A DNA stretch of 64,000 bases from Mustelus asterias (Eukaryota). Where the stretch lies: NCBI RefSeq assembly GCF_964213995.1, contig NC_135817.1, positions 53,072,001 through 53,136,000 of the forward strand. Reading direction: 5' to 3'. The first letter of the stretch is position 1; each line of letters begins with the position of its first letter. The notes under the pieces are model-generated. The model saw only the letters and a list, made by a program, of their open reading frames with translations. It ran no database searches and was not told where the DNA came from. Below, in pieces: positions 9,166 through 64,000 of the stretch. The translations under genes were made by a program, and so were the position numbers.

Positions 9166-9202
9166 CCATTAGCTTTCGGACCGCTGCTCCTTTGTCAGAT
9201 GG
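9166..9202 (-). ncRNA. Mirror copy of the minimal hammerhead motif (left arm)
   Basis: Reverse complement ccatCTGACAAaggagcagcggtccGAAAgcTAatgg. Same G8->A change, plus one helix II mismatch. Confidence 0.65.
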
Positions 9203-11875: not shown

Positions 11876-11912
11876 CCATCTGACAAAGGAGCAGCGCTCC
11901 GAAAGCTAATGG
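11876..11912 (+). ncRNA. Minimal type I hammerhead ribozyme motif of the PLE (G8->A variant)
   Basis: ccat-CTGACAA-a-ggagc(agc)gctcc-GAAA-gc-TA-atgg: helix I, core, helix II, palindromic AGCT in place of helix III. The core reads CUGACAA instead of CUGANGA. Confidence 0.7.
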
Positions 11913-11971
11913 TATTTGCTACCAAATAAACCTGTTGGTCTTTAACCTGGTGTTGTTAAAACTCTTAGAGA

Positions 11972-13438: not shown

Positions 13439-13667
13439 ATGATGTGGAGATGCCGGCGTTGGACTGGGGTGAACACAGTAAGAAGTTTAACAACACCAGG
13501 TTAAAGTCCAACAGGTTTATTTGGTAGCAAAAGCCACACAAGCTTTCGGAGCTCTAAGCCCCTTCTTCAGGTGAGACTGTAGAAGGGGCTTAGAGCTCCG
13601 AAAGCTTGTGTGGCTTTTGCTACCAAATAAACCTGTTGGACTTTAACCTGGTGTTGTTAAACTTCTT
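13439..13667. mobile_element. Miniature palindromic Penelope-like insertion (3' terminus/pLTR only)
   Basis: Same terminal sequence as 9074-9160. 92-bp perfect inverted arms 13475-13566 / 13581-13672. 12-bp TSD ACTGTCTATGTG at 13427-13438 and 13668-13679. Confidence 0.9.
13537..13573 (-). ncRNA. Minimal type I hammerhead ribozyme with intact core
   Basis: Reverse complement cac-CTGAAGA-a-ggggc(ttaga)gctcc-GAAA-gc-TT-gtg. Canonical CUGANGA and GAAA boxes. Confidence 0.75.
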
Positions 13668-14224
13668 ACTGTCTATGTGCCCAGGGCTGTGCCAAGGGGG
13701 TGGGGCCTGAATCGGGGTGGAGCCTGAGTGGGGGCTATGATGGAGGGGAGGGCTGTGATGTGGGGGGGTGGGGATGTGATTGGGGGGGGGGGGTGTGCAG
13801 GGAGGAGTCTGTGCAGAGAAGGGACTATGACAGGAGTCTGTGCAGAGGGGTGTTCCGTTTGGGGGGGGGGTCTGTGTGGGGGTGGGGGAGTGGGCTTTGT
13901 GCAAGGGGGATCGTGCAGGGTTGCAGCCTGAAGGGGGACATCCCAGGAGTCATGATGGGGGCATGTGTCCCGGGTCATGAGAGGGAACCCAATGGGGAAA
14001 AATGCCGCTTATGAGGGGGGGGTCCCCGATATCTGTGGAGGGACGGAGGAGTTCTTCCAGTGCACTGTGAGATCAGGGTGCCCTTCCAAAGTGGCACCTG
14101 ACCACTCTGCAGCCAGGTTCACCGGCATGTTTAGCACCCCCAACTCCCCCCAAACTCAGTGCTCTCCCAAAAAATGTCTTGAGTGTGGAACGATTGTGGT
14201 CCAAACCGCGCCCAATATCTTTCC

Positions 14225-22200: not shown

Positions 22201-22660
22201 GATTTGTTAGTGCATTCCTTTGTTTGCATGCTCTGTCCCTTCCTGTCACAGACCAGTTATTCTTCCCCAGACCATCTCCTTGCACTGTGTTGACCACCTC
22301 CCTTCTCATGCTTGTCACCTTTTTTGCTCTGCCTGAGGTTAGATTCCTGCCACCTTCTATACTCTCTTCTATTATGTGGTCTGGAAACTTTACTAACCTC
22401 TCCTGAGCCCTCAGCTCCTTTAACTAGTTGAAAGTCCTCATCATTAACCTGCACTCCTACCCTCTCCTTTACCTTTGATTTTCTAATTCTCCATACGACT
22501 GAACCCTCCCCCCCACTATTTAGTTTAAAGCCCTATCTACAGCCCTGGTTATACGATTCGCCAGGGCTCTGGTCCCAGCACGATTCAGATGAAGACCATC
22601 CCATCGGAACAGGTCCCCTCTTCCCCAATACTGGTGCCAATGTCCCATGAATTCAAGTAA
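19283..22660 (-). mobile_element. CR1 (HER1-like) LINE: end of ORF1 esterase, frameshifted ORF2 (APE+RT), 3' UTR
   Basis: ORF pieces WDGLHLNRAG (SGNH esterase), YLNARSIRNK, MGDFN, LDLVL, DFQKAFDKV, QGSVLGP, FADDTK, HLEYCVQFWSP. Confidence 0.92.
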
Positions 22661-23257
22661 AATGTTCCTACGTCTGTAAAATAAGTTATTGTAACTGCCG
22701 GAGCTGATTTCCTTGGCAAATATTTTGAAACATAGAAACAAAGGAAATAGAAGCAGGAGTAGGACATTTGGCCCTTCAAGCCTGCTCCACCATTCATTTT
22801 GATCATGGCTGATCATCAAATTCAATATCCTGACCCCCCCCTCCCCCGCCACATATCCCTTAACCCTTAGTCCCAAGAACTGTATCTAATTTCTTCTTAA
22901 AATCAACATATTTCTGAATTTGCCTCAGGGAAATACGAGGTGTATTAATCACCTGAAGTGTTTGCTGGATATCACTGACTGTTAGGGATATGTGGGACTG
23001 TGGAAAAGTTCAGAAAAGAGGTCAAAGTTTATCTCCCCAACGTCCATGGTTTCAAATTTAAAACATGCCTCTGGAAAAGCCATTGAGGCGTTATCTCAGC
23101 AATGTGAAAACCCCATTTATCTCCAGTTGCTAATTGACTTTGTTCAGACGATTCTATCACGTCTGAAAAACTGCTAATGATGAAATTATAAGGCCAGTGA
23201 GCATGCAGCATTTATTTTCTCTGTAGGGTCAGCATGCAGTATTGTAGAGAAGAGGTG

Positions 23258-24327
23258 GGGAGACTGTTATTGCTGAACAGGATCTATGTTCTTGTAGCAC
23301 TCTCAATTCTATTATGCACTTTCAAACTCTGGCTGGATGGAAAGTTTCATGACACTATTTCAAGAAGAGCAGGGCACTTTCCTAGTGCCTTGGCCAACAA
23401 ATTTCTGTAATCAAAATGTTTAATTCGATACTCACTCATTTGATGAACTTACAGGCCATGCAGTTACATCCTCTGGTACCTCACCCAATTAATTGTTTCT
23501 TATCGATGACCCTGGGCAGTAAGACTTTGAAATTTACATGGAGGTGGAAGGGTGCATATGAACCCAATAAAAGTCATAGAACCTGGCAAGGCCATGGAGA
23601 CCTCGCTGATCCTTGCAGCTGTTCTTCATTCATTAAAGATGTACAGATCCCTGCCTCCGGATACTATCACGTGGGTTTGGGGATGCGTACATGGAGAATC
23701 CACTTGGCATGTTGGATGGGGAGAGGTAAGGAAGGAATGGAGAGGAAGGTTCAGAGTATGATGTTTGTGAGGGTGGGGGTGCAGAATGTCCAGACACCAC
23801 TGACTAATGATCAGGACTAGAAAGGACAAAGGCTTTCTTGTCAGGGCTGGAAGAGACCATTCCTGCTTCTCCTGGCTTACAAGAAGTTAAAAATAGGCAA
23901 TGTTATAAAAATTAACTGGGTCTCTTCTCGTTGGTTCCTCCAGCCATGACTCTGCTGCCAGGCAACAGACAGTGCCAGACCTCCCCTCTGGTAAGCTTAA
24001 AATGTATTGAGGATCAGATCTTGACCTTAGAGTCCTAGTAAACCCTATCTACTTTGGTTCAGGGCCTGAATTGGTGCCATAAATAACACGGTGGGTTAGG
24101 CTTTGGGGGAGTTGAGGCTTAGGTCATTAATTGGGAGAGACTGTTATTGCTGAACGGGTTCCGATTCTTGTAGCATGCGTAATTCTATTGGGCACTTTTA
24201 CATTCAGGGTGCATGTAAAGTTTCATGACACTATTTGAAGAAGAGTAGGGCACTTTCCTAGAGCCTAAGCCAACAAGCTTCTTAAATCAAAATGTCCATT
24301 TCAATACTCACTCAGTTGATGAACTTC
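23258..24327 (+). repeat. Diverged ~190-bp direct repeat pair (~23258-23450 and ~24133-24327) containing a DeuSINE-like core
   Basis: Both read gagactgttattgctgaac...aaagtttcatgacactattt(c/g)aagaagag(c/t)agggcactttcctag...ccaacaa...atactcactca...gatgaactt. Confidence 0.78.
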
Positions 24328-24524
24328 TGCCTGAGAGATCCATTCCTGGTGGCATCACAACCCTTCACACTGCGTCAGCTGAAGCTGTTGGATGGATTGT
24401 GTCAGCCTCAACATCAAACTATAACTACTTCGCCACCCAAAAACAATTCTCATTTACTCTTTGTGGGACCTTATTTTGTATAATATTCGTTGCTGTGCTT
24501 ACATATGTGACAGTGCATCCACTT

Positions 24525-24859
24525 AGAATCATAGAAACCCTACAGTGCAGAAACAGCCCATTTGGCCCATCGAGTCTGCACCGACCACAATCCCACTCAG
24601 GCCCCAGCCCCATATCCCTACACATTTACCCGCTAATCCCACTAATTTACGCATCTCAGGACTCTAAGGGACAATTTTTAGCATGGCCAATCAACCTAAC
24701 CCGCACATCTTTGGACTGTGGGAGGAAACCGGAACACCCGGAGGAAACCCACGCAGACACGAGGAGAATGTGCAAACTCCACACAGTGACCTAAGCCGGG
24801 AATCGAACCCAGGTCCCTGGAGCTGTGAAGCAGCAGTGCTAACCACTGCTACCGTGCCG
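24525..24859 (-). mobile_element. HE1-like V-SINE, full length
   Basis: A/B boxes, V domain, CR1-type tail. Confidence 0.9.
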
Positions 24860-25197
24860 TCTCAAAAAATTACTCATTGATTGTGACTACATTAATGAAA
24901 GTCCCTTCTCTTTTCACATGAGGACATTTGCTTACAAGTTAAAATGTACACCTCCCACCCACCCACACAACACACCCAACACCCCCGACTCTCACACGTG
25001 GTAAAAGCACCTGTTTGTGTGGAAATGAATTGTATCAAGTTTCGGTTCTGATCCTTGTCCTGTCTTGAGCTAGCTGATCTCGGTTGATAGGATGTGTACT
25101 TAGTCCCAGTGCCCACTTACAATAAGCTATGCTTCTCAATTCGGTGAGCCTGACTTGATAGTGGGCAACAAAGTACAAGGGCATGTACAGGCTAGGA

Positions 25198-25626
25198 TTT
25201 AGAGTCATAGAGATATACAGCACCGAGACAGGCCCTTTGGCCCAACTCATCCATGCCAACCAAGTTTCCTAAACTGAACGAGTCCCATTTGCCTGCATTT
25301 GGCCCATATCCCTTGAAACCTTTCCTATCCATGTACCTGTCCAAATATCTTTTAAATGTTGTAATTGTTCCCGCCCCTACCACCAGCTCTGGCAGCTCAT
25401 TCCATATACACACCACCCTCTGTGTGAAAACGTTGCCCTTCAGTTCCCTTTTAAATCTTTCCCCTCTCACCTTAAACCTATGCTCTCTAGTTTTGGACTC
25501 CCCTACACTGAGGAAAAGACCTTGGCTCTTCACTTTATCTATGCCCCCCATGATTTTATAAACTTCATCCTCCTGAGCTCCAGAGAAAAAAAGTCCCAGC
25601 CTAACCAGCCTGTCCTTATAATTCAA
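25198..25626 (-). mobile_element. Older CR1 3' fragment
   Basis: ORF 25192-25632 ...VYKIMGGIDKV...FTQRVVCIWNELP. The element appears to resume briefly after 26994. Confidence 0.82.
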
Positions 25627-26986
25627 GAACAAAGAAAATTACAGTGCAGGAACAGGCCCCTCGGCCCTCCAAGCCTGCACCGACCATGCTACCTGACTTA
25701 ACGAAAACCCCCTACCTTTCTGCGGACCATATCCCTCTATTCCCATCCTATTCATGTATTTGTTAAGACGCCCCTTAAAAGTCACTATTATATCTGCTTC
25801 CACTACCTCCCCCGGTAACGAGTTCCAGGCACCCACCACTCTCTGTGTAAAAGATCTGCCTCGTACATCTCCTTTAAACCTTGTCCCTCGCACCTTAAAC
25901 CTGTGCCCCCTAGTAATTGACTCTTCCACCCTGGGAAAAAGCTTCTGACTATCCACTCTGTCTATGCCTCTCATAATCTTGTAGACTTCTATCAGATCAC
26001 CCCTCAACATCCGTCGCTCCAGAGAGAACAAACCAAGTTTCTCCAACCTCTCCTCATAGCTAATGTCCTCCATACCAGGCAACATCCTGGTAAATCTTTT
26101 CTGTACCCTCTCTAAAGCCTCCACATCCTTCTGGTAGTGTGGCGACCAGAATTGAACACTATATTCCAAGTGCGGCCTCACTAAGGTTCTATAAATCTGC
26201 AACATGACTTGCCAATTTTTAAACTCAATGCCCCGGCCGATGAAGGCAAGCATGCCGTATGCCTTCTTGGCTACCTTCTCCACCAGCGTTGCCACTTTCA
26301 GTGACCTGTGTACCTATACCCCCAGATCGCTTTGCTTATCAATACTCTTAAGGGTTCTACCATTTACGGTATATTTCCTATTTGTATTAGACCTTCCAAA
26401 ATGCGTTACTCACATTTGTCCGGATTAAACTCCATCTGCCATCTCTCCACCCAAATCTCCAACCGATCTATGTCCTGCTGCATCCTCTGATGGCCCTCAT
26501 CGCGATCCGCAAATCCACCAACCTTTGTGTCGTCCCCAAATTTACTAATCAAGCCAGTTACATTTTCCTCCAAATCATTTATGTATATTACAAACAGCAA
26601 AGGTCCCAGCACTGATCTCTGAGGAACGCCACTTGTCACAGCCATCAATTCAGAAACGCACCTTTCTATTGCTACCCTCTGTCTTCTTTGACCAAGTTGG
26701 TTTTGTATCCAGAGCTCACCTCTGATCCCATGCGACTTCACCTTCTGCATTAGTCTGCCATGAGGGTCCTTGTCAAAGGCCTTACTGAAGTCCATGTAGA
26801 CAACATCCACTGCCCTACCCTCATCAATCATCTTCGTCACTTCCTCAAAAAACTTGATCAAGTTAATGAGACACGACCTCCCCTTCACAAAACCATGTTG
26901 CCTCTCATTAATATGTCCACCCATTTTCAAGTGGGAATAAATCCTGTCTCGAAGAATCCTCTCCAATAATTTCCCTATCACTGATG
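25627..26986 (-). mobile_element. 5'-truncated CR1 LINE nested in an older CR1 3' end
   Basis: ORFs 26406-26981 and 25639-26295 (RT and C-terminus). Flanked by TAATTCAA at 25619-25626 and 26987-26994. Confidence 0.9.
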
Positions 26987-31206: not shown

Positions 31207-31514
31207 TGATGCGCGATTAAATCACTCGGGAGGCTGGATCGTACCCGGGAAATAAAGGCTTTTATTAGTAACAAGAATGGAGCATACTATATAACAATAC
31301 AATCCCAGACTAAAGGGTCACCAGGCAGTGCAGTGACCTTTATACTCCTACAGGTAGGCGGAGCCAACCGGAGTGTACCACAGAACAATACCAACAGGTA
31401 GACCACCCCAACCCTAACCCCAACAGTGACAACAGTAACATATGTACAAGTACCCATAGTGCTAACCATCTATGGTTCAGTACCCATAGTGGTAACCATC
31501 TATGGTTCACCACA
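31207..31514 (-). repeat. 3' LTR of element A (308 bp)
   Basis: Matches the 5' LTR except for 3 substitutions that I counted and one fewer 30-bp unit. Confidence 0.95.
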
Positions 31515-31528
31515 TTCACCCCTCCTTT
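31515..31528 (-). promoter_or_regulatory. Polypurine tract of element A
   Basis: Sense AAAGGAGGGGTGAA directly before the 3' LTR. Identical tract at 60492-60505 in element B. Confidence 0.85.
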
Positions 31529-31577
31529 AAAAACAAAGGCCAGTGGGGCAAAAAAACAGTACGAACTGTCCATATAT

Positions 31578-34500
31578 TCACAAGTTCAGTCGTATCGGAG
31601 GGCCGCACCGTCTCTGCGACCTCCTCAACACTGGCGGTAGCGCCGGTTCTGGTGACCGTGATGACCCTCTCTCCAAGGCGGTGTCCAGTGACTCCTCCAG
31701 TTCCTCACGGACAGGTGGACCACGAGGTGGCGACAATCTCCTGGACTCGAGCACGCCCCGAGGTGGCGACAATCTCCTGGACTCAGGCAAGCTGTACATG
31801 GGAGTAAGAAGATTAAGTGGTGGTCCCGATACTGCCCGCGCCGTGTCAGGAGGAGAGATAAAGGTCAAGGGGTCCCTAACCAGGGGTGCGGGAGCGACAG
31901 GGGTTTCCAAGTCCCCTGCAGGCGCCAGATCTCGAATAGAGACCGTGTCCTCTGGCCCGTCAGGATATGCCACATAGGCATATTGAGGGTTGACGTGGAG
32001 GAGATGGACCTGTTCAACCAAAGGGTCGGACTTGCGGGTCCTAACATGCCGCCGCAGGAGGACAGGTCCTGAGTACATCAACCAAGACGGCAGTGAGGTC
32101 CCAGAGGAAGACTTCCTAGGGAAGGTAAACATCCGCTCATGTGGGGTAGCGTTGGTTGCCGTACACAGGAGGGACCGGATTGAATGGAGCGCATCAGAAA
32201 GTACCTCTAGCCAACGGGAGACTGGAAGACCCTTAGACCTCAACGCCAGTAAGACAGCCTTCCAGACTGTAGCATTTTCTCTTTCAACCTGCCCGTTACC
32301 CCTGGGGTTGTAACTCGTAGCTCTACTTGAGGCAATCCCTTTTGAGAGCAGGTATTGCCTCAAGTCGTCACTCATAAACGATGAGCCCCTATCACTGTGG
32401 ATATAGCTGGGGTAACCAAACAGGGTGAAAAGATCCCGCAATGCTTTGATAACCGTGGCAGTAGTCATGTCTGAACAGGGAATGGCAAAAGGGAATCGGG
32501 AGTACTCGTCAATCATGTTGAGGAAGTACACATCCCGATCTGTCGAAGGAAGGGGGCCCTTGAAATCCACACTGTCTTTCAAAAGGGCGAGTGGCCTTAA
32601 TGAGGTGTGCCCTGTCATTTCGGTAGAAGTGCGGCTTGCATTCAGCACATACTGGCAGCTTCGGGTTATTGACCTGACATCCTCTACTGCGTAGGGTAGA
32701 TTCCGGGCCTTTACAAAATGGAAGAGCCGAGTGATCCCCGGATGGCAGAGATCATGGCAGAGATCATCAGAGGGCCTATAACCGATCCTCCTGCACCCTG
32801 GCACATGTTCCATGCGACAGGGCGTCTGAGGGCTCATTGAGCTTCCCCGGACGGTACATGATATCATAGTTGTAGGTGGAGAGTTCGATTCTCCACCTCA
32901 AGATTTTATCATTTTTGATCTTACCCCGTAACGTGTTGTTGAACATGAACGCCACGGACCGCTGGTCCGTGAGCAGGGTGAATCGTTTTACAGCCAAGTA
33001 ATGGCGCCAATGCCGGACAGCCTCCACAATGGCCTGAGCCTCTTTTTCCACCGCGGAGTGCCGAATTTCAGGGCCTTGGAGGGTGCAAGAGAAAAAGGCG
33101 TCGGGCCTGCCCACCTGGTTAAGTGTGGCGGCCAGGGCAAAATCAGATGCATCACTCTCCACCTGAAAGGGGATGGACTCATCGACAGCGTGCATCGTGG
33201 CTTTCGCGATGTCAGCTTTTATCCCTTCAAAGGCTAAGCGAGCCTCTGCTGCCAGGGGAAAAGAGGTAGACTTTATGAGCGGACGGGCTTTGTCCGCATA
33301 ATTGGGAACCCACTGTGCGTAATACGAAAAGAAGCCTAAGCATCTTCTCAGTGCTTTGATGCTAGTGGGTAGGGGAAGTTGAAGGAGGGGACGCATACGG
33401 TCTGGATCAGGGCCAAGGACCCCGTTTTCCACCACGTATCCGAGAATTGCTAGGCGGCGCTTGCTAAATACATACTTCTCCCTGTTATAGGTCAGATTCA
33501 GGCGAGACGCAGTGCGTAAAAACTTTAGGAGGTTGGCATCGTGGTCCTGCTGGTCATGGCCGCAGATAGTGACGTTGTCCAGGTACGGGAAGGTAGCCCG
33601 TAGCCCGTTTTGGTCCACCATTCGGTCCATTGCACGCTGGAAGACCGAGACCCCATTCGTGACGCTAAAGGGGACCCTTAAGAAGTGGTAGAGACGACCA
33701 TCCGCCTCAAAGGCCATATATTTTCGGTCCTCTGGGCGAATGGGGAGCTGGTGGTAAGCTGACTTCAAGTCAATGGTGGAGAACACCCGGTACTGCGCAA
33801 TCTGGTTGACCATGTCAGATATGCGTGGGAGAGGATACGCGTCCAGCTGCGTGTATCTATTAATGGTCTGACTATAGTCTATGACCATCCGGGGTTTGTC
33901 TCCAGTTTTAACCACCACGACTTGTGCTCTCCATGGGCTAGTGCTAGGTTGAATGATCCCTTCCCTGAGGAGCCGCTGAACCTCAGATCGAATAAAGATC
34001 CGATCCTCAGCGCTGTAACGCCTGCTCTTAGTTGCAATGGGCTTGCAGCCTGGCACGAGATTCTCGAATAAAGATGGCGGGGTGATTCTGAGTGTCGAGA
34101 GACTGCACGTGGAGCGCGGTGGGCAATTTGGAGGCTGCTGTTCTCCCACTGAAAGTGGAGGGAGTGGCCCATCGTACTGCAGGGTCACACTCCTCAGGTG
34201 GACCATAAAGTCTAGTCCCAGGAGTAGCGGAGCACAAAGGTGCGGTAACACGAGGAGCCTGAAGTTCTCATAAACTGTGCCCCGCACCGTTAGGTTGACC
34301 ACGCAGCTCCCAAGAACGGTAACAGATCGAGACCTCGACGCCATAGAAATTGTCTGTCTGACAGTCTGTACTCGGAGACCGCACCGTTTCACAGTGTCAG
34401 GATGAATGAAACTCTCTGTGCTCCCGCTGTCAAACAGACAATGTATTAGGTGTCCATTTACCTCTATGCCCATCATGGACTTGTCGAATCTGTGAGGCTT

Positions 34501-34713
34501 GGCCTGGTCCAGGATGATTGATGCCACCGTTGGGTCTCGAGTGCAACTGCAGGCAGCTGAGATGGTTGATGATGATGACCCCTGCTGGTCGTCTGCGGTC
34601 GGTGCCGACCAAAATGGCTGCACCCATGGATCGCACGTGGTCGGTGGCGCTGAAAGTGGTGGCACCCGCAGGTCGCACGTGTCTTGCGTCGTCGTCGTCA
34701 GGAATGGCGGTGC
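31578..34713 (-). pseudogene. pol: Pol of element A (PR-RT-RNaseH-IN), disrupted by frameshifts
   Basis: LFDSGS protease, IDLKSAYHQ / YLDN RT, SDASD RNase H, VDFKGP / HSDRG / VERENA integrase. Same frame as gag. Frameshifts near 32750-32780 (with a 12-bp duplication TGGCAGAGATCA) and near 32575-32650. Confidence 0.9.
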
Positions 34714-35583
34714 TCATGAATCGCACGTGGTGGAAGACCTCGATGAAGCTGGAGACAAGGTGACAGATTCTGGAGAATCACACGCCGCACTGCGAGGCTT
34801 CGAGGGTGGTTTAGCTCTGCACACTTTGGCATAGTGCCCTTTCTTCCCACACACGGAGCAAAATCCCGTTCTGGCTGGACATCGCTGCCGAGGGTGTTTC
34901 GCCAATCCACAGAAATAGCACCGCGGGCCTCCTGGAGCTGCCGCCGTCGTCAGGTCCGAGGTTGAAAGCACGATCGCGCAGTTTCTCGGAGCCGCTGGGT
35001 AGAGTTGAGTCGGTGGCTGTACTTGCCACGATGTTCCCACGTGGTCGGTGGGGTAAGTTTCCAGACTTCTGGAGGCCGTTTCCATCGTGTCAGCCAATTC
35101 CACCGTCTTAGCTAGGTCTAAGTTACCTTGCTCTAGCAGCCGCAGGCGAATATAGGATGAGCCGATTCCCGCCACGAACGCATCTCGAATCAAATCGTTA
35201 GTATACTGGGTCGCCGACACTGGCTTGCAATTGCAGGCTCTGGCTAGCTGCTGAAGTTCGCGCAGGTACTGTCCCGTCGTTTCACCAGGCTGCCGCCGTC
35301 GAGTGGCTAGAAGGTGTCGAGCATGAATCTCGTTTGGCGGTTTGTTGTACAGTTTCTTAAGTAGTTCGATGGCCCCTTTGTAGTCTTGGGCATCATGGAT
35401 TGATGAATATACAGTGTCGCTTACCCTTGCGTGGAGGACCCGCAGTCTATCGGCATCATTTTGAATGGCTGTTGAGGCATCGATATAGTCTTGAAAACAC
35501 TTCAACCAATGGTCGAAAGTGTTCGACGCTCCAGCTGCACGCGGATCTAAGGTAAGCCGATCGGGTTTTAACATTTGCTCCAT
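34714..35583 (-). CDS. gag: Gag of element A (two zinc knuckles)
   Basis: CYFCGLAKHPRQRC and CSVCGKKGHYAKVC knuckles. Ends at an in-frame TGA where element B has W (TCDSW). Confidence 0.9.
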   Translation of the reverse strand: MEQMLKPDRLTLDPRAAGASNTFDHWLKCFQDYIDASTAIQNDADRLRVLHARVSDTVYSSIHDAQDYKGAIELLKKLYNKPPNEIHARHLLATRRRQPGETTGQYLRELQQLARACNCKPVSATQYTNDLIRDAFVAGIGSSYIRLRLLEQGNLDLAKTVELADTMETASRSLETYPTDHVGTSWQVQPPTQLYPAAPRNCAIVLSTSDLTTAAAPGGPRCYFCGLAKHPRQRCPARTGFCSVCGKKGHYAKVCRAKPPSKPRSAACDSPESVTLSPASSRSSTTCDS

Positions 35584-35602
35584 GGTTTTTTTTTAACCAA
35601 AA

Positions 35603-35617
35603 TTGTTACTAATAAAA
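35603..35617 (-). promoter_or_regulatory. Non-tRNA primer-binding-site position, complementary to the element's own LTR
   Basis: Sense TTTTATTAGTAACAA begins 1 nt after the 5' LTR end. It is the exact reverse complement of LTR 35672-35686. No TGG start. Confidence 0.75.
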
Positions 35618-35618
35618 T

Positions 35619-35956
35619 TGATGCGCGATTAAATCACTCGGGAGGCTGGATCGTACCCGGGAAATAAAGGCTTTTATTAGTAACAAGAATGGAGCATACT
35701 ATATAACAATACAATCCCAGACTAAAGGGTCACCAGGCAGTGCAGTGACCTTTATACTCCTACAGGTAGGCAGAGCCAACCGGAGTGTACCACAGAACAA
35801 TACCAACAGGTAGAACACCCCAACCCTAACCCCAACAGTAACAACAGTAACATATGTACAAGTACCCATAGTGCTAACCATCTATGGTTCAGTACCCATA
35901 GTGGTAACCATCTATGGTTCAGTACCCATAGTGGTAACCATCTATGGTTCACCACA
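35619..35956 (-). repeat. 5' LTR of element A (338 bp)
   Basis: Minus strand TGTGGTGAAC...GCGCATCA. TATAAA at 35751-35756(-), AATAAA at 35673-35678(-). Three copies of a 30-bp unit. Confidence 0.95.
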
Positions 35957-44133: not shown

Positions 44134-44667
44134 CAAAAAACAAAGAACAAAGAAAATTACAGAACAGGCCCTTCGGCCCTCCAAGCCTGCACCGACCATG
44201 CTGCCCAACTTAACTAAAACCCCCTACCCTTCTGGGGACCATTTCCCTCTATTCCCATCCTATTCATGTACTTGTCAAGACGCCCCTTAAAAGTCATTAC
44301 CTCCCCTGGCAACGAATTCCAGGCACCCACTACTCTCTGTGTAAAAAATCTGCCTCGTACATCTCCTTTAAACCTTGCCCCTCGCACCTTAAACCTATGC
44401 CCCCTAGTAATTGACTCTTCCATCCTGGGAAAAAGCTTCTGACTATCCACTCTGTCCATGCCTCTCATAATCTTGTAGACTTCTATCAGGTCTCCCCTCA
44501 ACCTCCATCGCTCCAGTGAGAACAAACCAAGTTTCTCCAACCTCTCTTCATAGCTAATGCCCTCCATACCAGGCAACATCTTGGTAAATCTTTTTTGTAC
44601 CCTCTCCAAAACCTCCACATCCTTCTGGTAGTGTGGCGACCAGAATTGAACACTATATTCCAAGTGC
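44134..44667 (-). mobile_element. CR1 3' fragment (same family as 25627-26986)
   Basis: HLEYSVQFWSPHYQKDVE...GAWNSLP, near-identical 3' UTR and (TTCTTTG)n tail. Confidence 0.9.
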
Positions 44668-45769
44668 CTGAAACAGTTCTCCCAATTTTGGTACAAGCCC
44701 CCAGACGTTGCTAAGGAGGACATTGCAGGATTGACAGGGCTGGGTTTGCCATTGTCATTTCTGGTGCCTAGGTCAATGACGAGTGGTCTGTCCAGCTTGA
44801 TTCCTTTTTGTTCCATTTGTATTTCTATGTCATTTTATTATCTGTGCATCGCGAGATCTGGCCGCTCGGAGAGATTTGGCAAGTTTGCAATAAGAGCGGT
44901 ATCCAAGAAAGTTTGCAGGAATATGTGCAAAGTTACCAACAATTAACAATTACACAGACACACATTTTTAAAAATCTTCTACGGAATATATAAATGGAAT
45001 CTGCAGTGTTGAAAGGGATGTAGAGAGGCTGAGTGTCTCTACTCTACTCATGGATATGCCCAGAGGCCAATATAGTAATCTGTACATGCTCTGAAGCTTT
45101 ATAACAACACAAGAAATAGACATTGCTACTGGCAAAAGACTCAGGGGCCTTTTTGGTTAAGACATCCAGATATTCGCCAATATAAATTGCACCATTTAGT
45201 CTTGGTGTGTGGCCTTGGTCTTGGTTTTCATTGAAGTGAAATAGAAGGCATGTGAAATGTTTTATTGTATATCCTTTACATTGCAAAAAACCTCCAGAAA
45301 TACAGTTATAAATTTTTTTCCTTTTCGAAATTGGTTGTGTCCCAAGAGAGTACCTTGAACTATATAACATCAGAGTGAAGTAGTGATGATTACAGTATTA
45401 CACTGGAAACATTGGCACAATTGTAAATTGTATTGGCTTGAAAGCAATCTTCATATAGGGTATCAATATCACAATGTTAAATTAATCTACTGACAAGACT
45501 GGTATGACAACTCCAGAGGAGTTAACCCTTTGTCTGAGCTTGTAAGGAATGTTGTGGTAGATAATCCCTTTGGAGAGCAGGATGTCTCTAGTTTCTGCTT
45601 ACAGTAGTCTGAAAAAAGGACCCTACAGTAAAGGTCCCTACATTTTAAAAAAAGTCTCTTGCACTAATTCAAAGAGCTATCAATTGAAGTATTTGGTTCA
45701 GTGCCAATATTTGTCTGATTACACTCCCGGGAAGCACGTTTGGGACCTTTTGCTATGTTAAAAGTTTTG

Positions 45770-51011: not shown

Positions 51012-52375
51012 TGTAGCCTGATGGGTATTCATAAATACCCCAGCAAAGTCTGACGGTTAAAAGGGCTAACTCTGTATCAGGCTAAGGACAGTGGGAGCAG
51101 CAAAGAACAGGATGTGCAGCTATGGCACAAATATGGGAATTGATTGGACAGTGGCTTTTGCTATGCCTTGAAGAGACAGTGTGTGGCATGTTCCTGAGAG
51201 AATTACAACCCTCTGACAGAGGCACAACTCTCTGTATTCAAGACCAAAATGACAGTGACTGATTAGTGCCTGTCCTTGGCTATGTGACTAGAAGCATGAC
51301 CAGTATCAGCAGGATCACTTTAAGAAGGACAGACAAGGAGACATCGACAGCGGTAACCCGAGATCAACCACTGTAGAAGCAAAGCCCCCGAGTCTGAGAT
51401 TCGGAGATATCAAAGCAAAACCCATCTGCGGGGAATCTGAGCAGTTCACCTCAACATGGGTATGTCTTTAAGTCGTGAGTTTGGATATTTTGTGATGTTT
51501 TGATATCTTTTGAATACTACTGTGTAGAACGGAGTAGGTCAAAGGTTAGTTACTTTGTGTGTAACAAAGTCAGTCAGAGGTTAAATACTTTGTGTATGAC
51601 GAAGTTTGTTGACTGGTGTAATTGTGGTAACGTGGTACAGTACAATAAAGACCATAAGACCATAAGACCATAAGACATAGGAGCGGAAGTAAGGCCATTC
51701 GGCCCATCGAGTCCACTCCACCATTCAATCATGGTTGATTTCAACTCCATTTACCCGCTCTCTCCCCATAGCCCTTAATTCCTCGAGAAATCAAGAATTT
51801 ATCAATTTCTGTCTTGAAGACGCTCAACGTCTCGGCCTCCACAGCCCTCTGTGGCAATGAATTCCACAGACCCACCACTCTCTGGCTGAAGAAATTTCTC
51901 CTCATCTCTGTTCTAAAGTGACTCCCTTTTATTCTAAGGCTGTGCCCCCGCGTCCTAGTCTCCCCTGTTAATGGAAACAACTTCCCTACGTCCATCCTAT
52001 CTAAGCCGTTCATTATCTTGTAAGTTTCTATCAGATCTCCCCTCAACCTCCTAAGCTCCAATGAATATAATCCCACGATCCTCAGACGTTCATCGTATGT
52101 CAGGCCTACCATTCCTGGGATCATCCGTGTGAATCTCCGCTGGACCCGCTCCAGTGCCAGTATGTCCTTCCTGAGGTGTGGGGCCCAAAATTGCTCACAG
52201 TACTCCAAATGGGGCCTAACCAGTGCTTTATAAAGCCTCAGAAGTACATCCCTGCTTTTGTATTCCAAGCCTCTTGAGATAAATGACAACATTACATTTG
52301 CTTTAAAGGAGATTTGTTGCACAAGAATTCAAGAGTTGAGCCTTTGTCCAGTTAACCCGAGTTTGAGAGCAACAC
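51012..52375 (+). mobile_element. Probable solo LTR, interrupted by the CR1 fragment at its AATAAA
   Basis: Inverted termini TGTAGC...GCAACA. AATAAA at the CR1 junction. It splits the protease motif (DTRASVNIL, minus strand) of an older Gypsy. TSD unclear. Confidence 0.5.
51647..52305 (-). mobile_element. CR1 3' fragment with (GTCTTATG)n tail
   Basis: ORF 51741-52322 HLEYCEQFWAP...GLWNSLP. (cataagac)n at ~51647-51677. Confidence 0.9.
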
Positions 52376-57845: not shown

Positions 57846-60173
57846 ATTGAGCCCAGAGTTCAGAGGTATGGCCTTCCTAAAAGCATTAAGCTCTCCAGTA
57901 CCAGAGTCCATTCTTAGTGTTGTGAAGGTGTCCATGGCAACTTCCCACCCCAAAATTGTGTTGACTGTTTTATGGACATTGTTATACTGTCCGAATACAC
58001 AGTATAATTGTGTAAGAATCTGGATACAATTTGCTGAACTCTAGTGAGACTCCCGAGAAAGTGCTTGCTTCTGTTGGGTGAGCAGAATTATTCATGTCAT
58101 TGTGTGAAATGGGACATTTTGATGAATGATATCATAACTAATGTGTCACAACATGTATATTGCTCCCATTTCATTTGTTTTTCGCTGTGGTTCGCCTTTG
58201 CCCAGATACAAAGGCCAGCTCATTGTGGCAACCTTCATCCTACATGAATCTTACGGTATTTACAAGTAAAGCATCAAGGAATTCTGAATTATGATTTTCA
58301 TTATGCCCCACTGTCTAATATTCTGTTATGTACAATAACAACTCTGATACACAATGTTTATGACTTCTTGATTAAAAGAAAGGTCATGCTCTTCTGTACA
58401 CCTCTTAAAAAACTTCTACATTGAATCTAACTCAACTTGGATCTTACAGGTCTTTGAGTTTACTTTTTTTAAACTGGCTTCCTTATCCTACCAACAAAAT
58501 GATAAGTCTGCTTTTTGCGGGGGGCCAGAGAAAGGTAATAATTAGAATACGTTATACGTTATATCAGAGTAAACAAGGGGAATGCCAGTCGGGGAGGCCA
58601 TGCATGAATATCAGTTTCCCTTAAACCAACCCTGCAACTAAATGGCTATGGGGTTACACTGTGCAGCAACACTAGGTCAGGCAAGAGCATCCTGACAGGC
58701 TACACAGCCCCCTGGAGTGTGCACAAGAAACTTATGGGAAATGGAGACCAGCTCTGGTTACAGGCTGCAACTTGCTCACCAGAATCATGGAACTGAGTCT
58801 GGTCGGTGAAGATTTTGTCCGACCCAGCCCGTTTCCCATGGGTGTGACAAGGCTGCGAAGCGTAGGATCTGGATCTTTACCTTCAACTTCAGCTCTTCAA
58901 ATCTTCAACTTCATCAATTAAATATTCTCTGCCTTTTAATTTCCCTCCCACATTCTCCAATGTTCTTCTGCAACTGCTTCTTAGGAGGTTGTGAATGTGA
59001 TGTGGGTTAACTCTCGAATTATCCACCTTCTCTCTCCCTCTGAGTAAAAGCCTCACCCTCTACGTGTTGCAACTCTCCCAGTGATGAGGTCTGAAGCCAC
59101 ATCCGAGTGCTTCATGTTGCAGCATGTGCGTGCAACAGGGTGATGCTGCATTTGGACACTTGCTGTTACATCTCTTTCCCAACAATGAGTTTTACTCTAG
59201 TTATTACCAGCTTGTTCTAATGTGTTGGTGTCTGTTGAGGAAAGTAATCATTCTATTTTATTTAATAATGAATTGAGATCTGTGTAGGTATGGCACATGC
59301 CATTGTAAGTTCAGATATTTTCAAAACTCTTTTGATTTGCAGTGGCATTGCTCACGGCCTGTTTGGCCCCGACAGCGCTGTACTTTCTTTCCCTTTAATT
59401 CTTCTCTGGTTCGACAGTTTTGTCTTGGAGCGAAAATGTTGTGGGTTCAAGCCTCTCACTTCATGTAGCACTCCCAAAGAACTGTACTAGTCAGAGCTGC
59501 AGTTAACTTTAGCTGTGTCGTGAGAAAGAGAGGCGGTTGAATAAGCCGTTGATTTTACACAGCAGCAAATGTTACGTTCCATGGATTTTGGGCAAGGTGT
59601 AATTATGAGTGGTCGACCTGACCACGTGGGTTGGGTTCAAATGATCGCTGCTTTCTTTCGTACGAGAGTTTAAATTAAGGCACAGAGTTTAAAACAAGGC
59701 ACATTCTGCCTGTTCTGGTAGGCGTTTTAAGAAATCCAATGACGTGATTTGAAAAAAAAATTGAGTGGCCTGACTAACGTTCCTCCTTGAACGGATGCCA
59801 TGGAAACAAGTTAACTAGTCATTCATCTCCCTTTCTTTGGAATTTTGCTATGAGTAAGATGACTTCCTCCTTTTATCTACATAAAAGCAATGACTGCACT
59901 TCGAGCCAAGGGCACATCGCAGAGTGAACTTGTTTTTGACAGGGTTTCACAAACCTTTCCAACCACACAACACTTTTGACCTCCCAAGTGTACTGTCGGA
60001 ACCCATGAGAAACATTCTAATTGTGTTGAAGAGTTAAAGCACAAAAAATGGGTTGTTTTTGTGCGATGAGTACCAACATACGAAAAAGACAAATTTATAT
60101 ATCAAAGTATATTCTATTTCTTATATGTGTCTATTTATTATAATTGAAAAGTTCCCTTATTCAACAAAGTACT

Positions 60174-60491
60174 TGATGCGTGACAATCAAGCACGAGGTA
60201 CAAGGCTTCAGCGATTGAAGGCTTTTATTGACAAACAATGGAACTATCTAAACACGAGTACACCAATCCAGACTGGAGGGGTCCCGCCTGAGCAGAGGGT
60301 CTTATACCTCTCCCAGGAGGCGGGGCCTGACCGGAATGTGCCATAACAGCATCCACCACAGGTATATTAATCCCACAGTGTAAACACCCTAGCCCAACAA
60401 CAACATTATAACAACCCCACAGTGTCAACACCCTAACCCAACAGCAACATTGGAATAACCCCACAGTGGTAACCAACGATGGTTCACCACA
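60174..60491 (-). repeat. 3' LTR of element B (318 bp)
   Basis: Shares termini (TGTGGTGAACCATC... / ...GCATCA) and AATAAAAGCC with element A LTRs, with a diverged interior. Internal repeats ccacagtgt(a/c)aacaccctaa/g. Confidence 0.9.
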
Positions 60492-60555
60492 TTCACCCCT
60501 CCTTTGAAAACAAAGGCCGGCGGGGTGCGAAAACAGACTACATATATACAAAAAT

Positions 60556-63500
60556 CTACAAGTCCAGACGGTCTGGAGGACCGCACCGTCGCTGTGACCT
60601 CCTCAACACCGGTTGTGACACCGGAGCAGGTGCTTGCGGTGGCGTTCTCTCCAAAACAACGTCCGGCTGTCCCCTCGAGGACTCACGGGCCGGTTGACCC
60701 TGGTGAAGTGGTGGTGCAGGGGATCCCGGTACCTTCTGTGGTGGCGCCGATCTCCGAGTCTCAGGCAAGCTGTACATGGGAGTATAACTGTTATGCACTG
60801 GTCCCGGTGCTGACCGCGCCACGTCCGGGGAAGAAATAAGTGATAGGGGATTCGTGACAGGGGGTATGGGAGCGACAGGAGTTGCTACGTCCCCTGCGGG
60901 CGCCAGGTCTCGGATCGAGACTGTGTCCTCTCGCCCGTCAGGATATGCCACATAGGCATACTGAGGGTTGGCGTGGAGGAGGTGGACCGGTTCGACCAAG
61001 GGGTCGGACTTGCGGGCCCTTACATGTCGCCGCAGAAGGACGGGTCCTGGGTACGTCAACCAGGCTGGTAAAGATATCCCCGAGGACGACTTCCGAGGGA
61101 ATGAGAACATCCTCTCGTGGGGAGTAGCATTGGTTGCCGTACACAGGAGGGAGCGAATGGAGTGGAGCGCATTTGGAAGGACCTCCTGCCAATGGGAGAC
61201 TGGAAGGCCTTTGGACTTCAGCGCCAGTAGGACAGCCTTCCAGACTGTAGCATTCTCTCTCTCCACCTGTCCGTTGCCCCTAGGGTTGTAACTCGTGGTT
61301 CTACTAGAGGCAATCCCGTATGAGAGCAGGAATTGCCTCAAGTCGTTACTCATGAACGACGAGCCCCTGTCGCTATGTATATAGCAGGGATACCCGAACA
61401 GGGTAAAAAGATCACGGAATGCCTTGATCACCGTGGCAGTCGACGTGTCCGCACAGGGGACAACAAACGGGAACCGGGAGTACTCATCTATGATGTTAAG
61501 AAAGTACACGTTCCGGTCTGTTGAGGGAAGGGGGCCCTTAAAATCCACACTCAGCCTCTCGAAGGGGCGAGTGGCCTTGACCAATTGTGCCCGGTCAGGT
61601 CGGTAAAAGTGCGGTTTGCATTCCGCGCAAATCCGACAGCTTCTTGTTACTGACCTGACATCCTCCACCGAGTAGGGCAGGTTGCGGGCTTTGATGAAGT
61701 GGTAGAGCCGAGTGACCCCTGGATGGCACAGATCATTATGGAGGGCGTTCAAGCGGTCCTCCTGCATGGTAGCGCATGTTCCGCGCGAGAGGGCATCCGA
61801 GGGCTCATTGAGTTTCCCTGGACGATACATAATATCGTAATTATAGGTGGAGAGCTCAATTCTCCACCGCAAGATCTTGTCATTCTTGATCTTGCCCCTC
61901 TGCGTATTATTGAACATAAACGCCACGGATCGCTGATCCGTGATCAGGGTGAACCGCTTTCCCACCAGGTAATGGCGCCAGTGTCTGACGGCCTCCACAA
62001 TGGCCTGGGCCTCCTTCTCCACCGCTGAATGCCGAATTTCGGGACCTTGAAGGGTGCAGGAAAAAAACGCGACGGGCCTGCTTGCCTGGTTCAGTGTGGC
62101 GGCCAGGGCGAAATCAGATGCATCACTTTCCACCTGAAAAGGGATGGATTCATCCACCGCGTGCATCGTGGCTTTCGCAATGTCGCTTTTCAAAGCCTTG
62201 AAGGCCAATTGGGCCTCTGGCGTGAGCGGAAAAGTTGTGGACTTGATGAGCGGACGGGCTTTGTCCGCGTAGTTGGGGACCCACTGCGCATAATAAGAGA
62301 AGAAGCCGAGGCATCTCCTTAGTGCTTTTGCGCTAGCGGGCAAGGGAAGTTCAGTAAGGGGGCGCATACGGTCTGGATCAGGGCCAATGACCCCGTTTTC
62401 CACCACGTATTCCAGGATAGCTAACCTGCGCGTACGGAATACACACTTCTCCCTGTTATAGGTCAGATTCAGGCGAGACGCAGTGCGCAAAAGGTTCTGG
62501 AGGTTTGTGTCATGGTCCTGCTGGTCATGGCCGCAGATGGTGACATTATCCAGGTACGGGAAGGTAGCCCGCAACCCGTTCTGGTCCACCATTCGGTCCA
62601 TAGCACGCTGGAAGACCGAGACCCCATTGGTGACACCAAATGGAACCCTAAGAAACTGATACAGACGACCATCCGCCTCAAAAGCCGTGTATTGTCGGTC
62701 CTCTGGGCGGATGGGGAGTTGGTGGTAGGCGGACTTAAGGTCTATGGTGGAGAACACCCGGTACTGCGCAATCTGATTGACCATATCAGATATGCGCGGG
62801 AGAGGATACGCATCCAGCTGCGTATAACGATTAATGGTCTGACTGTAGTCGATGACCATCCGGGGTTTGTTCCCGCTTTTAACCACCACGACCTGTGCTC
62901 TCCACGGACTAACGCTGGACTGTATGATCCCTTCTTTGAGGAGCCGCTGAACCTCAGATCTGATGAAGATCCGGTCTTCAGCCCTGTAACGCCTACTTTT
63001 AGTAGCGATGGGCTTGCAGCCTGGTACCAGATTCTTAAATAGAGAGGGTGTGGTGATCTTTAGTGTGGAAAGATTGCATGCGGGGCGCTTTGGACGATTT
63101 GGAGGCTGCGGCTGATTCCCTACTGCCAGCGAAGGGAGTGGCCCACCGTACTGTAGGATCACACTCTTCATGTGGACCATAAAGTTTAGTCCGAGGAGAA
63201 TTGGCGCGCAAAGATGCGGCAACACAAGGAGCCTGTATCGCTCGTAAATTGTGCCCTGCACCTCCAGAGTTACCACACAATGTCCTTGGATCGGTACAGA
63301 CCGGGACCGTGATGCCATAGAAATTGTCTGTTTGGCAGGTAGAACCCGGAGTCCACACCTCTTTGCAGTGTCAGGGTGAATAAAACTCTCGGTGCTCCCA
63401 CTGTCAAACAGACAATACACAGTACGACCATTTACCTTGATGGTCATCATTGAACAGTCAAGTCTGTGATGCTTAGCCTGGTCCAGGGTGATCGACGCCA

Positions 63501-63987
63501 CCGTTGGCCCTTGGACGTCACTGCAGGCAGCCGAGGTTGATGCTGAGGACCCCTGCTGGTCGCTCCTGGTCGTCGTCGACCAAGATGGCCGCCCCCATGA
63601 ATCGCACGTGGGTGAGGGCGCCAAGCGTAGCGACTCCTGGTGGTCATCCTCCTCCTCCGCCAGCCACAATGGCGTCGTCCTGGGCTCGCACGTGGTCGGA
63701 CCTCGTGGGTACTGCAACGCCGATGGAGATTGTCTCCGTTCTGGAGGGTCACAGGCTGCACTGCCGTTCTTGGGCTTCGATCTGCAGACTTTCGCGTAGT
63801 GCCCCTTTTTACCGCACTGACTGCAGATCACCGTTTTAGCTGGACACTGTTGCCGTGGATGCTTGGCTCCTCCGCAAAAATAGCACCGCGGGCCGCCTGG
63901 GGCTGCCGCCGTCGTCGGGTCGATATGGGAGCGCGAGCCCGTGGGGCGAGGAGGGATTTGTGACTGCTCCTGCCACGTTGTCTCCAC
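60556..63987 (-). CDS. pol: Intact single-frame Gag-Pol (C-terminal 1143 aa; start outside window)
   Basis: Two CCHC knuckles, LFDSGS, IDLKSAYHQ, PFG, YLDN, SDASD...EKE...TDQ...DALSR, HHCC (HNDLCH...CRIC) and D-D-E integrase, with no stops. Confidence 0.93.
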   Translation of the reverse strand: METTWQEQSQIPPRPTGSRSHIDPTTAAAPGGPRCYFCGGAKHPRQQCPAKTVICSQCGKKGHYAKVCRSKPKNGSAACDPPERRQSPSALQYPRGPTTCEPRTTPLWLAEEEDDHQESLRLAPSPTCDSWGRPSWSTTTRSDQQGSSASTSAACSDVQGPTVASITLDQAKHHRLDCSMMTIKVNGRTVYCLFDSGSTESFIHPDTAKRCGLRVLPAKQTISMASRSRSVPIQGHCVVTLEVQGTIYERYRLLVLPHLCAPILLGLNFMVHMKSVILQYGGPLPSLAVGNQPQPPNRPKRPACNLSTLKITTPSLFKNLVPGCKPIATKSRRYRAEDRIFIRSEVQRLLKEGIIQSSVSPWRAQVVVVKSGNKPRMVIDYSQTINRYTQLDAYPLPRISDMVNQIAQYRVFSTIDLKSAYHQLPIRPEDRQYTAFEADGRLYQFLRVPFGVTNGVSVFQRAMDRMVDQNGLRATFPYLDNVTICGHDQQDHDTNLQNLLRTASRLNLTYNREKCVFRTRRLAILEYVVENGVIGPDPDRMRPLTELPLPASAKALRRCLGFFSYYAQWVPNYADKARPLIKSTTFPLTPEAQLAFKALKSDIAKATMHAVDESIPFQVESDASDFALAATLNQASRPVAFFSCTLQGPEIRHSAVEKEAQAIVEAVRHWRHYLVGKRFTLITDQRSVAFMFNNTQRGKIKNDKILRWRIELSTYNYDIMYRPGKLNEPSDALSRGTCATMQEDRLNALHNDLCHPGVTRLYHFIKARNLPYSVEDVRSVTRSCRICAECKPHFYRPDRAQLVKATRPFERLSVDFKGPLPSTDRNVYFLNIIDEYSRFPFVVPCADTSTATVIKAFRDLFTLFGYPCYIHSDRGSSFMSNDLRQFLLSYGIASSRTTSYNPRGNGQVERENATVWKAVLLALKSKGLPVSHWQEVLPNALHSIRSLLCTATNATPHERMFSFPRKSSSGISLPAWLTYPGPVLLRRHVRARKSDPLVEPVHLLHANPQYAYVAYPDGREDTVSIRDLAPAGDVATPVAPIPPVTNPLSLISSPDVARSAPGPVHNSYTPMYSLPETRRSAPPQKVPGSPAPPLHQGQPARESSRGQPDVVLERTPPQAPAPVSQPVLRRSQRRCGPPDRLDL

Positions 63988-64000
63988 GTGGTCTTCTGGA

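What the first reader, a model, noticed from the sequence alone, without database searches (positions are those of the whole stretch)
62545..62556. Second family keeps YLDN with different codons in an intact ORF (element B)
Seen: TAC CTG GAT AAT here versus TAC CTG GAC AAC in element A. Both third positions have changed synonymously while Asn is kept, inside a stop-free 1143-aa Gag-Pol with diverged LTRs. Inference: Asn is under purifying selection rather than a decay mutation. Element B is the best candidate for a still-competent copy.
Basis: partly seen in the sequence, partly recalled or inferred. Interest (0 to 1): 0.75.

Follow-up and report, generated by a model that had tools for sequence, protein, structure and literature searches.

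The report
Gypsy retrotransposon with two-aspartate reverse transcriptase
This is one of more than 10,000 copies of a jumping gene, in what is likely a shark or ray genome, whose copying enzyme has asparagine in place of a normally fixed catalytic aspartate; the enzyme likely works that way and likely primes on its own RNA.

Summary
Confirmed: 62545-62556 (-) reads TAC CTG GAT AAT (YLDN). It is RT motif C of a complete 4.7-kb Ty3/Gypsy element with a 1324-codon open Gag-Pol, 318-bp LTRs (7 mismatches) and the predicted 5-bp TSD. Asn is not decay. Genome-wide, 10,352 copies read Asn, 19 Asp and 31 Ser (mutation control). RT-RNase H dN/dS between A and B is 0.07. YxDN marks an animal-wide Gypsy clade (158 N, 73 D of 237 rows) that switched at least 10 times; no compensating site was found. 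The two-codon argument alone is weak. B is not special: 52 of 150 top copies have a full open frame, and B's LTRs differ more than those of 29 of 39 siblings. Extra finding: there is no tRNA-type primer site; the leader pairs over 15 nt with the LTR's AATAAA segment and covaries across families (self-priming likely, unproven). Precedent: YVDN in nematode BEL/Pao; in Ty1 and Ty3 the change keeps polymerase activity but blocks transposition. The scan noted this before in another genome (e1-9160346); its Cigr-1 label could not be tested.

The parts
62545..62556 (-). RT motif C, YLDN (Asn codon AAT at 62545-62547) in place of YxDD
   Evidence: aligned to Ty3 YLDD
62740..62742 (-). RT motif A aspartate (FSTID), intact
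   Evidence: sequence, position; D in 151 of 152 ungapped Asn-bearing homologs
60556..63999 (-). In-window part of a single Gag-Pol ORF. The whole ORF is 1324 aa from a Met 530 bases beyond the window end to the stop at 60556-60558. The 5' LTR (G000:C17:53136572-53136889) and the 15-nt leader in the primer-site position (53136556-53136570) also lie beyond the window, in locus L031
63784..63885 (-). Two CCHC zinc knuckles of Gag
   Evidence: motif positions
63178..63444 (-). Aspartic protease (FDSGS)
   Evidence: Pfam gag-asp_proteas E 1.2e-11
62431..62880 (-). Reverse transcriptase polymerase core
   Evidence: Pfam RVT_1 E 3.5e-23; AlphaFold model pLDDT 90.5 matches CaMV and Ty3 RT structures
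61843..62148 (-). RNase H, four acidic catalytic-type residues present
   Evidence: Pfam RT_RNaseH E 1.2e-24
61282..61767 (-). Integrase (HHCC zinc domain and DDE core)
   Evidence: Pfam Integrase_H2C2 (just below its curated cut-off) and rve; motifs
60492..60505 (-). Polypurine tract abutting the 3' LTR
   Evidence: sequence
60174..60491 (-). 3' LTR, 318 bp, TG...CA. TATAAG at 60301-60306, initiator-like CCAGTC around 60274, AATAAA at 60224-60229
   Evidence: promoter labels are inference from sequence
60223..60237 (-). 15-nt LTR segment containing AATAAA; its copy in the 5' LTR is perfectly complementary to the 15 nt in the primer-site position
60169..60173 (+). Target-site duplication GTACT, repeated at the far flank beyond the window end
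31207..35956 (-). Element A, second family of the same clade: LTRs 338 and 308 bp (3 mismatches in 308), TSD CCTTT, YLDN at 33574-33585, same leader pairing. Broken by an in-frame stop near 34715 and a frameshift near 32780

Best explanation
Element B is a complete Ty3/Gypsy LTR retrotransposon copy whose RT reads YLDN instead of YxDD, a trait shared by over 10,000 genomic copies and by a wide animal clade, and the enzyme likely copies the element using only two catalytic aspartates. Shown: anatomy, copy counts, purifying selection on RT-RNase H, invariance of the other two aspartates, repeated Asn/Asp switching, and a covarying 15-bp leader-LTR pairing. Inferred: the motif A Asp and the first motif C Asp hold the metals, as found for Ty1 and Ty3. 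Asn supplies the polar, pyrophosphate-release or processivity role well enough in a clade whose RT background is already remodelled (WRAQ for W-S-P, DYS for DYR, NGV for NAP), so either residue is tolerated. Also inferred: minus-strand synthesis starts from the element's own RNA, after a cut at the end of the AAUAAAA arm that pairs with the leader. The same hairpin would hide the 5' poly(A) signal.
For: Whole-genome pattern counts: Asn 10,352, Asp 19, Ser control 31; the reversed control pattern gave 0 each time. The 19 Asp copies are scattered over subfamilies, with only one pair above 97% identity. dN/dS A vs B is 0.067 over 426 codons: 0.087 polymerase core, 0.023 RNase H. Variants shared by 3 or more of 40 copies give pN/pS 0.07 against 0.35 for private ones, Fisher p 9e-7. 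Recent amplification: median LTR divergence 1.0% in 40 copies, 3 with no mismatch, 34 of 40 with an exact 5-bp TSD. Clade: 13 of 13 homologs at 70% identity or more are DN, 114 of 149 at 55-70%, 31 of 74 at 43-55%, 0 of 45 below 43%. The ingroup of 237 rows has SH support 100, 22 minimum changes, 10 forced by branches at 95 or more. Clade-wide RT signatures against 44 outgroup rows. Ty1 D211N and Ty3 D214N keep in vitro polymerase activity (PMC2148107, PMC5371799). Leader pairing: four arm variants in family B plus that of A keep full 15-bp pairing. In 30 junctions chosen by a pattern fixing only 7 bp, 225 of the 240 free pairs are complementary (shuffles: mean 160, maximum 182, 0 of 5000 reach it). 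Folding z -3.1 and -3.8 with the same architecture in B and A.
Against: No activity was measured. In Ty1 the substitution lowers kpol 223-fold and blocks transposition unless RNase H suppressors arise, and Ty3 D214N is lethal for transposition. No compensating residue was found: the best of 875 column tests reached about 5 of 13 independent pairs, and the best printed p was a median of 0.125. So 'permissive background' is an inference. The tree is FastTree with long-branch warnings. The pattern counts see only copies with an intact motif context. The 40 dated copies were chosen as top hits to B. For self-priming, the pairing arm starts about 37 nt downstream of the TATA/initiator-inferred start, not at the RNA 5' end as in Tf1, and the start site is unmapped.
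Confidence: 0.8

Rival explanations
1. The YLDN polymerase is crippled, and the copies are mobilised in trans by a YxDD helper element.
For: The same substitution abolishes transposition in Ty1 and Ty3. Other Gypsy families of this genome were not surveyed.
Against: Polymerase-core dN/dS is 0.087. The other two aspartates are kept in 151 of 152 and 154 of 154 Asn-bearing homologs (the second by the way rows were selected). There is no Asp subfamily within the clade in this genome: 19 copies against a control of 31. All 17 rows of the subclade holding the named sharks and rays are Asn.
Confidence: 0.06
2. Asn is converted to Asp after the gene, by A-to-I editing of the codon's first base or by deamidation of the protein, so the working enzyme is ordinary YLDD.
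For: AAY to GAY is exactly an A-to-I change (established knowledge). Repeated N/D switching on the tree is compatible.
Against: Edited genomic RNA would be copied into DNA as Asp copies, which are no more common than the Ser control. Asn before Val or Ile is a slow deamidation context (recalled, no call).
Confidence: 0.05
3. For the leader only: the 15-bp pairing is not a primer but a hairpin that masks the 5' LTR poly(A) signal and the Gag AUG, and priming uses an unrecognised tRNA or fragment.
For: The paired arm always contains AATAAA, and the fold also pairs the Gag start codon. The arm is not at the inferred RNA 5' end.
Against: The pairing begins 1 nt after the LTR end with the arm's 3' end facing U5, which is primer geometry. 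No TGG-type site follows the LTR in any junction read (the 30 were selected on that leader). Rare variants carry both changes at once (L109, L150, L090), as expected if the primer is copied into the primer site. The two functions are not exclusive.
Confidence: 0.3
4. Asn is a decay mutation or an assembly error in dead copies.
For: None found.
Against: 10,352 copies, many species, both Asn codons in use.
Confidence: 0.01

Closest known systems
Ty3/Gypsy LTR retrotransposons (Metaviridae), Ty3 RT (PDB 4OL8)
   Same: PR-RT-RH-IN order, TG...CA LTRs, PPT, 5-bp TSD, RT fold (TM 0.72-0.79), motif A Asp and first motif C Asp
   Different: Third catalytic Asp is Asn; clade-specific RT motifs; no tRNA-type primer site
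Nematode BEL/Pao elements with YVDN (Cer7-Cer12; Atlas virus)
   Same: Natural Asp-to-Asn change at the same position in intact elements (PMC554778, PMC9094657; passages). PMC554778 says retention of activity remained to be determined
   Different: Different superfamily, Atlas-type ones carry Env; here a Gypsy clade at over 10,000 copies in a vertebrate, with reversions to Asp in relatives
Laboratory mutants Ty1 D211N and Ty3 D214N
   Same: Same substitution; polymerase activity kept in vitro
   Different: There transposition is lost; here the substitution is carried by a recently amplified family
Self-priming Tf1/sushi, Tj1, Tcn1 elements
   Same: Primer-site position complementary to a segment of the element's own LTR (PMC7175516, PMC4600332, PMC6317226; passages)
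   Different: 15 nt rather than 11; the arm contains the poly(A) signal and lies about 37 nt inside the inferred start; no chromodomain hit in Pfam
Cigr-1 clade of Gypsy (Ciona; molluscs, annelids)
   Same: Label proposed by earlier scan note e1-9160346; a tunicate (Styela clava) member with YLDN is in my clade
   Different: No Cigr-1 sequence was available, so the identity is untested

Membership tests
Ty3/Gypsy (Metaviridae) | Pol order PR-RT-RH-IN | tested here: met
Ty3/Gypsy (Metaviridae) | Paired TG...CA LTRs, PPT, 4-6 bp TSD | tested here: met
Ty3/Gypsy (Metaviridae) | RT-RH closest to Ty3 among solved retroelement RTs | tested here: met
   Ty3 E 5e-53 against 7e-34 for the next entry (8r0s, CaMV) and retroviral RTs 5e-21 or weaker; by fold CaMV ranks first and Ty3 second
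Ty3/Gypsy (Metaviridae) | Canonical YxDD (typical consensus, not the classifying feature) | tested here: not met
   YLDN
Endogenous retrovirus or env-bearing element | env ORF between integrase and 3' LTR | tested here: not met
   ORF stop at 60556 is 50 nt from the PPT
BEL/Pao with YVDN | BEL/Pao-type Gag with three Cys-His boxes and BEL/Pao RT | tested here: not met
   Two CCHC knuckles, Pfam RVT_1 and RT_RNaseH models, Ty3 the best sequence match; no BEL reference was placed in the tree
Kuafuorterviruses | IADD/VADD/LADD motif | tested here: not met
   PMC11673190 against YLDN
Tf1/sushi self-priming group | Primer-site position complementary to own LTR, no tRNA site | tested here: met
Tf1/sushi self-priming group | Primer is the first nucleotides of the transcript, released by RNase H | tested here: inconclusive
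   Inferred TATA/initiator puts the start about 37 nt upstream of the arm; no read data map it
Tf1/sushi self-priming group | Chromovirus lineage (chromodomain, RT phylogeny) | tested here: inconclusive
   No chromodomain hit; no named chromovirus in the tree
Cigr-1 clade | RT/RH groups with Ciona Cigr-1 | not testable with these tools
   Founding paper not held; FASTA supplements of PMC8556966 unreadable; PMC6238403 supplements list names only

The most novel reading that the evidence does not exclude
An old, animal-wide Gypsy lineage has a reverse transcriptase for which the third 'invariant' aspartate is optional, switching Asn/Asp ten or more times. It starts reverse transcription from an internal piece of its own RNA that doubles as the poly(A) signal, so one hairpin suppresses premature polyadenylation, gates the Gag start codon and supplies the primer. 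This would be a self-priming mode distinct from Tf1's.
Probability: 0.4. Interest if true: 0.72.

Novelty: new variant of a known kind. Interest (0 to 1): 0.5.

Why it matters
The third RT aspartate is treated as invariant, and annotation rules would call YxDN copies dead. A family of 10,000 recently spread copies indicates that this is wrong for a whole Gypsy clade. Natural sister elements that differ as Asn or Asp (for example P0084/P0114 and P0089/P0284) give matched enzymes for the open question, raised by Ty1 D211N, Ty3 D214N and nematode YVDN, of what that residue does and why yeast elements cannot transpose without it. The covarying leader adds a likely new animal case of tRNA-independent priming.

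Tried and rejected
Literature: ten full-text searches found no paper describing YLDN or YxDN in a Gypsy element. The library lacks most subscription journals, Repbase and GyDB, and motifs shown only in figures are invisible, so absence from print is not established. A recalled 'CN1 clade' lead was not found. PMC2774666 has no Cigr mention. Expression: no RNA holder listed; contigs of two guessed-RNA runs from other organisms held mostly diverged relatives; no conclusion. Insertion polymorphism: the flank was covered only by X5 and X6 (one sample), whose contigs appear to run into the LTR; X3 and X4 gave no laid contig at 97%; no conclusion. Compensatory sites: none significant. The tree of 19 Asp and 70 Asn genomic copies gave 3 changes, which looks like clustering. 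It is confounded because the Asn sample was 69 family-B copies plus A, so I rely on pairwise identities only. The metagenome contig scan returned 7 distant loci at 28-32% identity, not clade members, so the leader pairing was not tested outside this genome. ARAGORN found no tRNA gene in L031. The Gag N-terminal part has no Pfam hit. Look-ups of earlier findings by place and by sequence were empty.

Full report
OBSERVATION. 62545-62556 on the minus strand reads TAC CTG GAT AAT (YLDN); element A at 33574-33585 reads TAC CTG GAC AAC. [quoted passage not shown] YLDN aligns with Ty3's YLDD. The window is G000:C17:53072001-53136000 of a 3.68-Gb genome. The closest named relatives are sharks and rays at about 80% identity, so the host is likely a cartilaginous fish (inference).

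ANATOMY. The adjacent stretch (L031) completes B: a 5' LTR at window-extended 64572-64889, a Met at 64530 and a 1324-aa ORF with no stop or frameshift. The 3' LTR is 60174-60491, with 7 mismatches in 318 bp and AGTAC on both flanks. A polypurine tract abuts the 3' LTR and there is no room for env. Element A has its own LTR pair (3 mismatches in 308) and TSD CCTTT, but has an in-frame stop and a frameshift.

IS ASN REAL? Whole-genome exact pattern counts are decisive. With the same degenerate context, 10,352 sites have Asn, 19 have Asp and 31 have Ser; Ser is a control that needs the same kind of single A-to-G change. Among the 19 Asp copies only one neighbouring pair exceeds 97% identity, and the copies range from 63% to 95% identity to B, so they look like scattered post-insertion changes. 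A tree of these copies is uninformative because of biased sampling. dN/dS for A vs B is 0.067: 0.087 in the polymerase core and 0.023 in RNase H. Among 40 family-B copies, shared variants have pN/pS 0.07 and private ones 0.35 (the copies were chosen as protein top hits, which depresses the private value).

IS B SPECIAL? No. Of 41 stretches examined, 40 had two LTRs. Median LTR divergence is 1.0%, three pairs have no mismatch, 34 of 40 have an exact TSD and 13 of 40 have an open frame of 1320 aa or more. 29 of the 39 others have fewer LTR mismatches than B; the remaining 10 have 16-34 with gaps and may be chimeric or mis-delimited. 52 of the 150 top protein hits have a full open frame. B has 5 private amino-acid positions; one in RT and one in RNase H fall at columns where 71% and 88% of homologs agree and at most 3% share B's residue. 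B is an ordinary, slightly older member of a recently amplified family. No substitution rate was applied, so no date in years is given.

THE CLADE. Of the 120 best homologs, 95 read Y[LMI]DN, 21 read xxDD, 1 other and 3 were unread. With representatives added, 281 of 284 proteins covered the motif: DN in 13 of 13 at 70% identity or more, 114 of 149 at 55-70%, 31 of 74 at 43-55% and 0 of 45 below. A FastTree tree of 279 homologs plus A and B was built with the motif columns dropped and 2 short rows left out. It separates an ingroup of 237 rows (158 N, 73 D, 6 other; support 100) from 44 other Gypsy-like rows. It needs 22 N/D changes, 10 forced by branches at 95 or more (shuffled mean 88). The basal lineages are mostly Asp, and Asp reappears inside Asn groups (long-branch warnings apply). 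Named Asn members are sharks, rays, cnidarians and the tunicate Styela; named Asp members are insects and Trichuris. The other two polymerase aspartates and the RNase H acidic residues are kept in both states. No site tracks Asn in independent pairs (875 tests). The whole clade differs from the outgroup at about 18 columns, including RAQ for -SP, Ser for Arg after DY, and GV for AP in motif B. The AlphaFold model (pLDDT 90.5) is a standard RT-RNase H fold, closest to CaMV and Ty3; I could not inspect side chains.

LEADER. No tRNA-type site follows the 5' LTR. The 15 nt from position +2 are complementary to an LTR segment containing AATAAA, 64 nt (B) or 68 nt (A) before the LTR end. Of 40 family-B copies plus A, 35 pair over the full 15 nt, 3 over 11-13 nt, 1 had no AATAAA and no pairing, and 2 were not parsed; five arm variants (four in family B, one in A) change on both sides. 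A pattern fixing only 7 bp has 4,639 genomic matches. In the first 30, 225 of the next 240 positions pair, 22 of 30 perfectly, against a shuffled mean of 160 and a maximum of 182 (related copies are not independent, but 16 distinct types give 113 against 76, 0 of 5000). A and B fold alike (z -3.8 and -3.1), with an outer helix on the Gag AUG. The geometry is that of self-priming as described for Tf1, Tj1 and Tcn1. However, the arm lies about 37 nt inside the start inferred from the TATA and initiator-like motifs, whereas Tf1 uses its first 11 bases. I put self-priming at about 0.6. Poly(A) masking may be a second function or the only one.

MECHANISM. Established: Ty1 D211N keeps polymerase activity with kpol down 223-fold, loses transposition, and is partly rescued by RNase H suppressors (PMC2148107, abstract and passages). 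Ty3 D214N keeps activity with reduced processivity and is lethal in vivo, D151 and D213 being the metal ligands (PMC5371799, passages). Inferred: this clade's RT uses the two essential aspartates, and its background makes the third position Asp-or-Asn neutral enough for mass transposition. The rivals (helper in trans, editing or deamidation, decay) are each contradicted by the counts above.

KNOWN OR NEW. Natural YVDN is reported for nematode BEL/Pao elements, with activity left open (PMC554778 and PMC9094657, passages). Ten searches found no report for Gypsy, within the library's limits. It is not a Kuafuortervirus (PMC11673190, parts 1-2 of 3). The Cigr-1 clade is named in PMC6238403 and PMC8556966 (passages and supplement searches), but no sequence was readable; their FASTA and picture supplements may bear on both the clade name and the motif. 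PMC2582038 and PMC3670739 were seen as passages and did not help. I had logged the clade-wide Asn and the leader pairing before seeing it, tested the switching and the pairing here, and could not test the label.

VERDICT. A real, clade-level variant of a known element type. The single copy is unremarkable, but the family is a strong natural case that an RT with Asn at the third catalytic position supports transposition. Interest 0.5.

Noticed in passing
window 9111-11967: Large near-perfect inverted repeat centred at 10536/10537 (796-nt arms at 97% with no spacer, further arms of 298 and 345 nt). Both arms encode a 249-aa RT C-terminal fragment with YIDD that looks Penelope-like (label recalled; no Pfam hit). 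Could be a head-to-head element pair or an assembly fold-back.
   Followed up: partly
window 19374-26313, 44214-44834, 51740-52139: Several decayed LINE 3' fragments (CR1/L2-like by recalled sequence features; no Pfam hit for two tested).
   Followed up: no
window 1801-55666 (families D2-D4, D9, D14-D17): Dispersed short repeats of 70-200 nt in both orientations, SINE-like.
   Followed up: no
window 31419-31514 and 35831-35956: Element A's LTRs start with a 30-bp tandem unit; the 5' LTR has one more unit than the 3' LTR (338 vs 308 bp). B's LTR has a 44-bp internal repeat instead.
   Followed up: partly
L081, L086, L098, L109, L117: Copies with matching TSDs but 16-34 LTR mismatches and gaps: possible recombinants between subfamilies or gene conversion.
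   Followed up: no
L121-L150: At least five distinct LTR families of the clade share the leader architecture, including a GCTCC/GCTCT run placed to pair with the Gag ATGGAGC start.
   Followed up: partly
L031:1154-1177 and 5898-5951: Contigs of run X5 join the two flanks of B with diverged letters, suggesting that B inserted into an older repeat whose other copies are empty; not evidence of polymorphism.
   Followed up: no
window 2734-3209 and 13475-13672: Two hairpin-type inverted repeats (200-nt arms at 93%; 96-nt arms at 99%), MITE-like.
   Followed up: no
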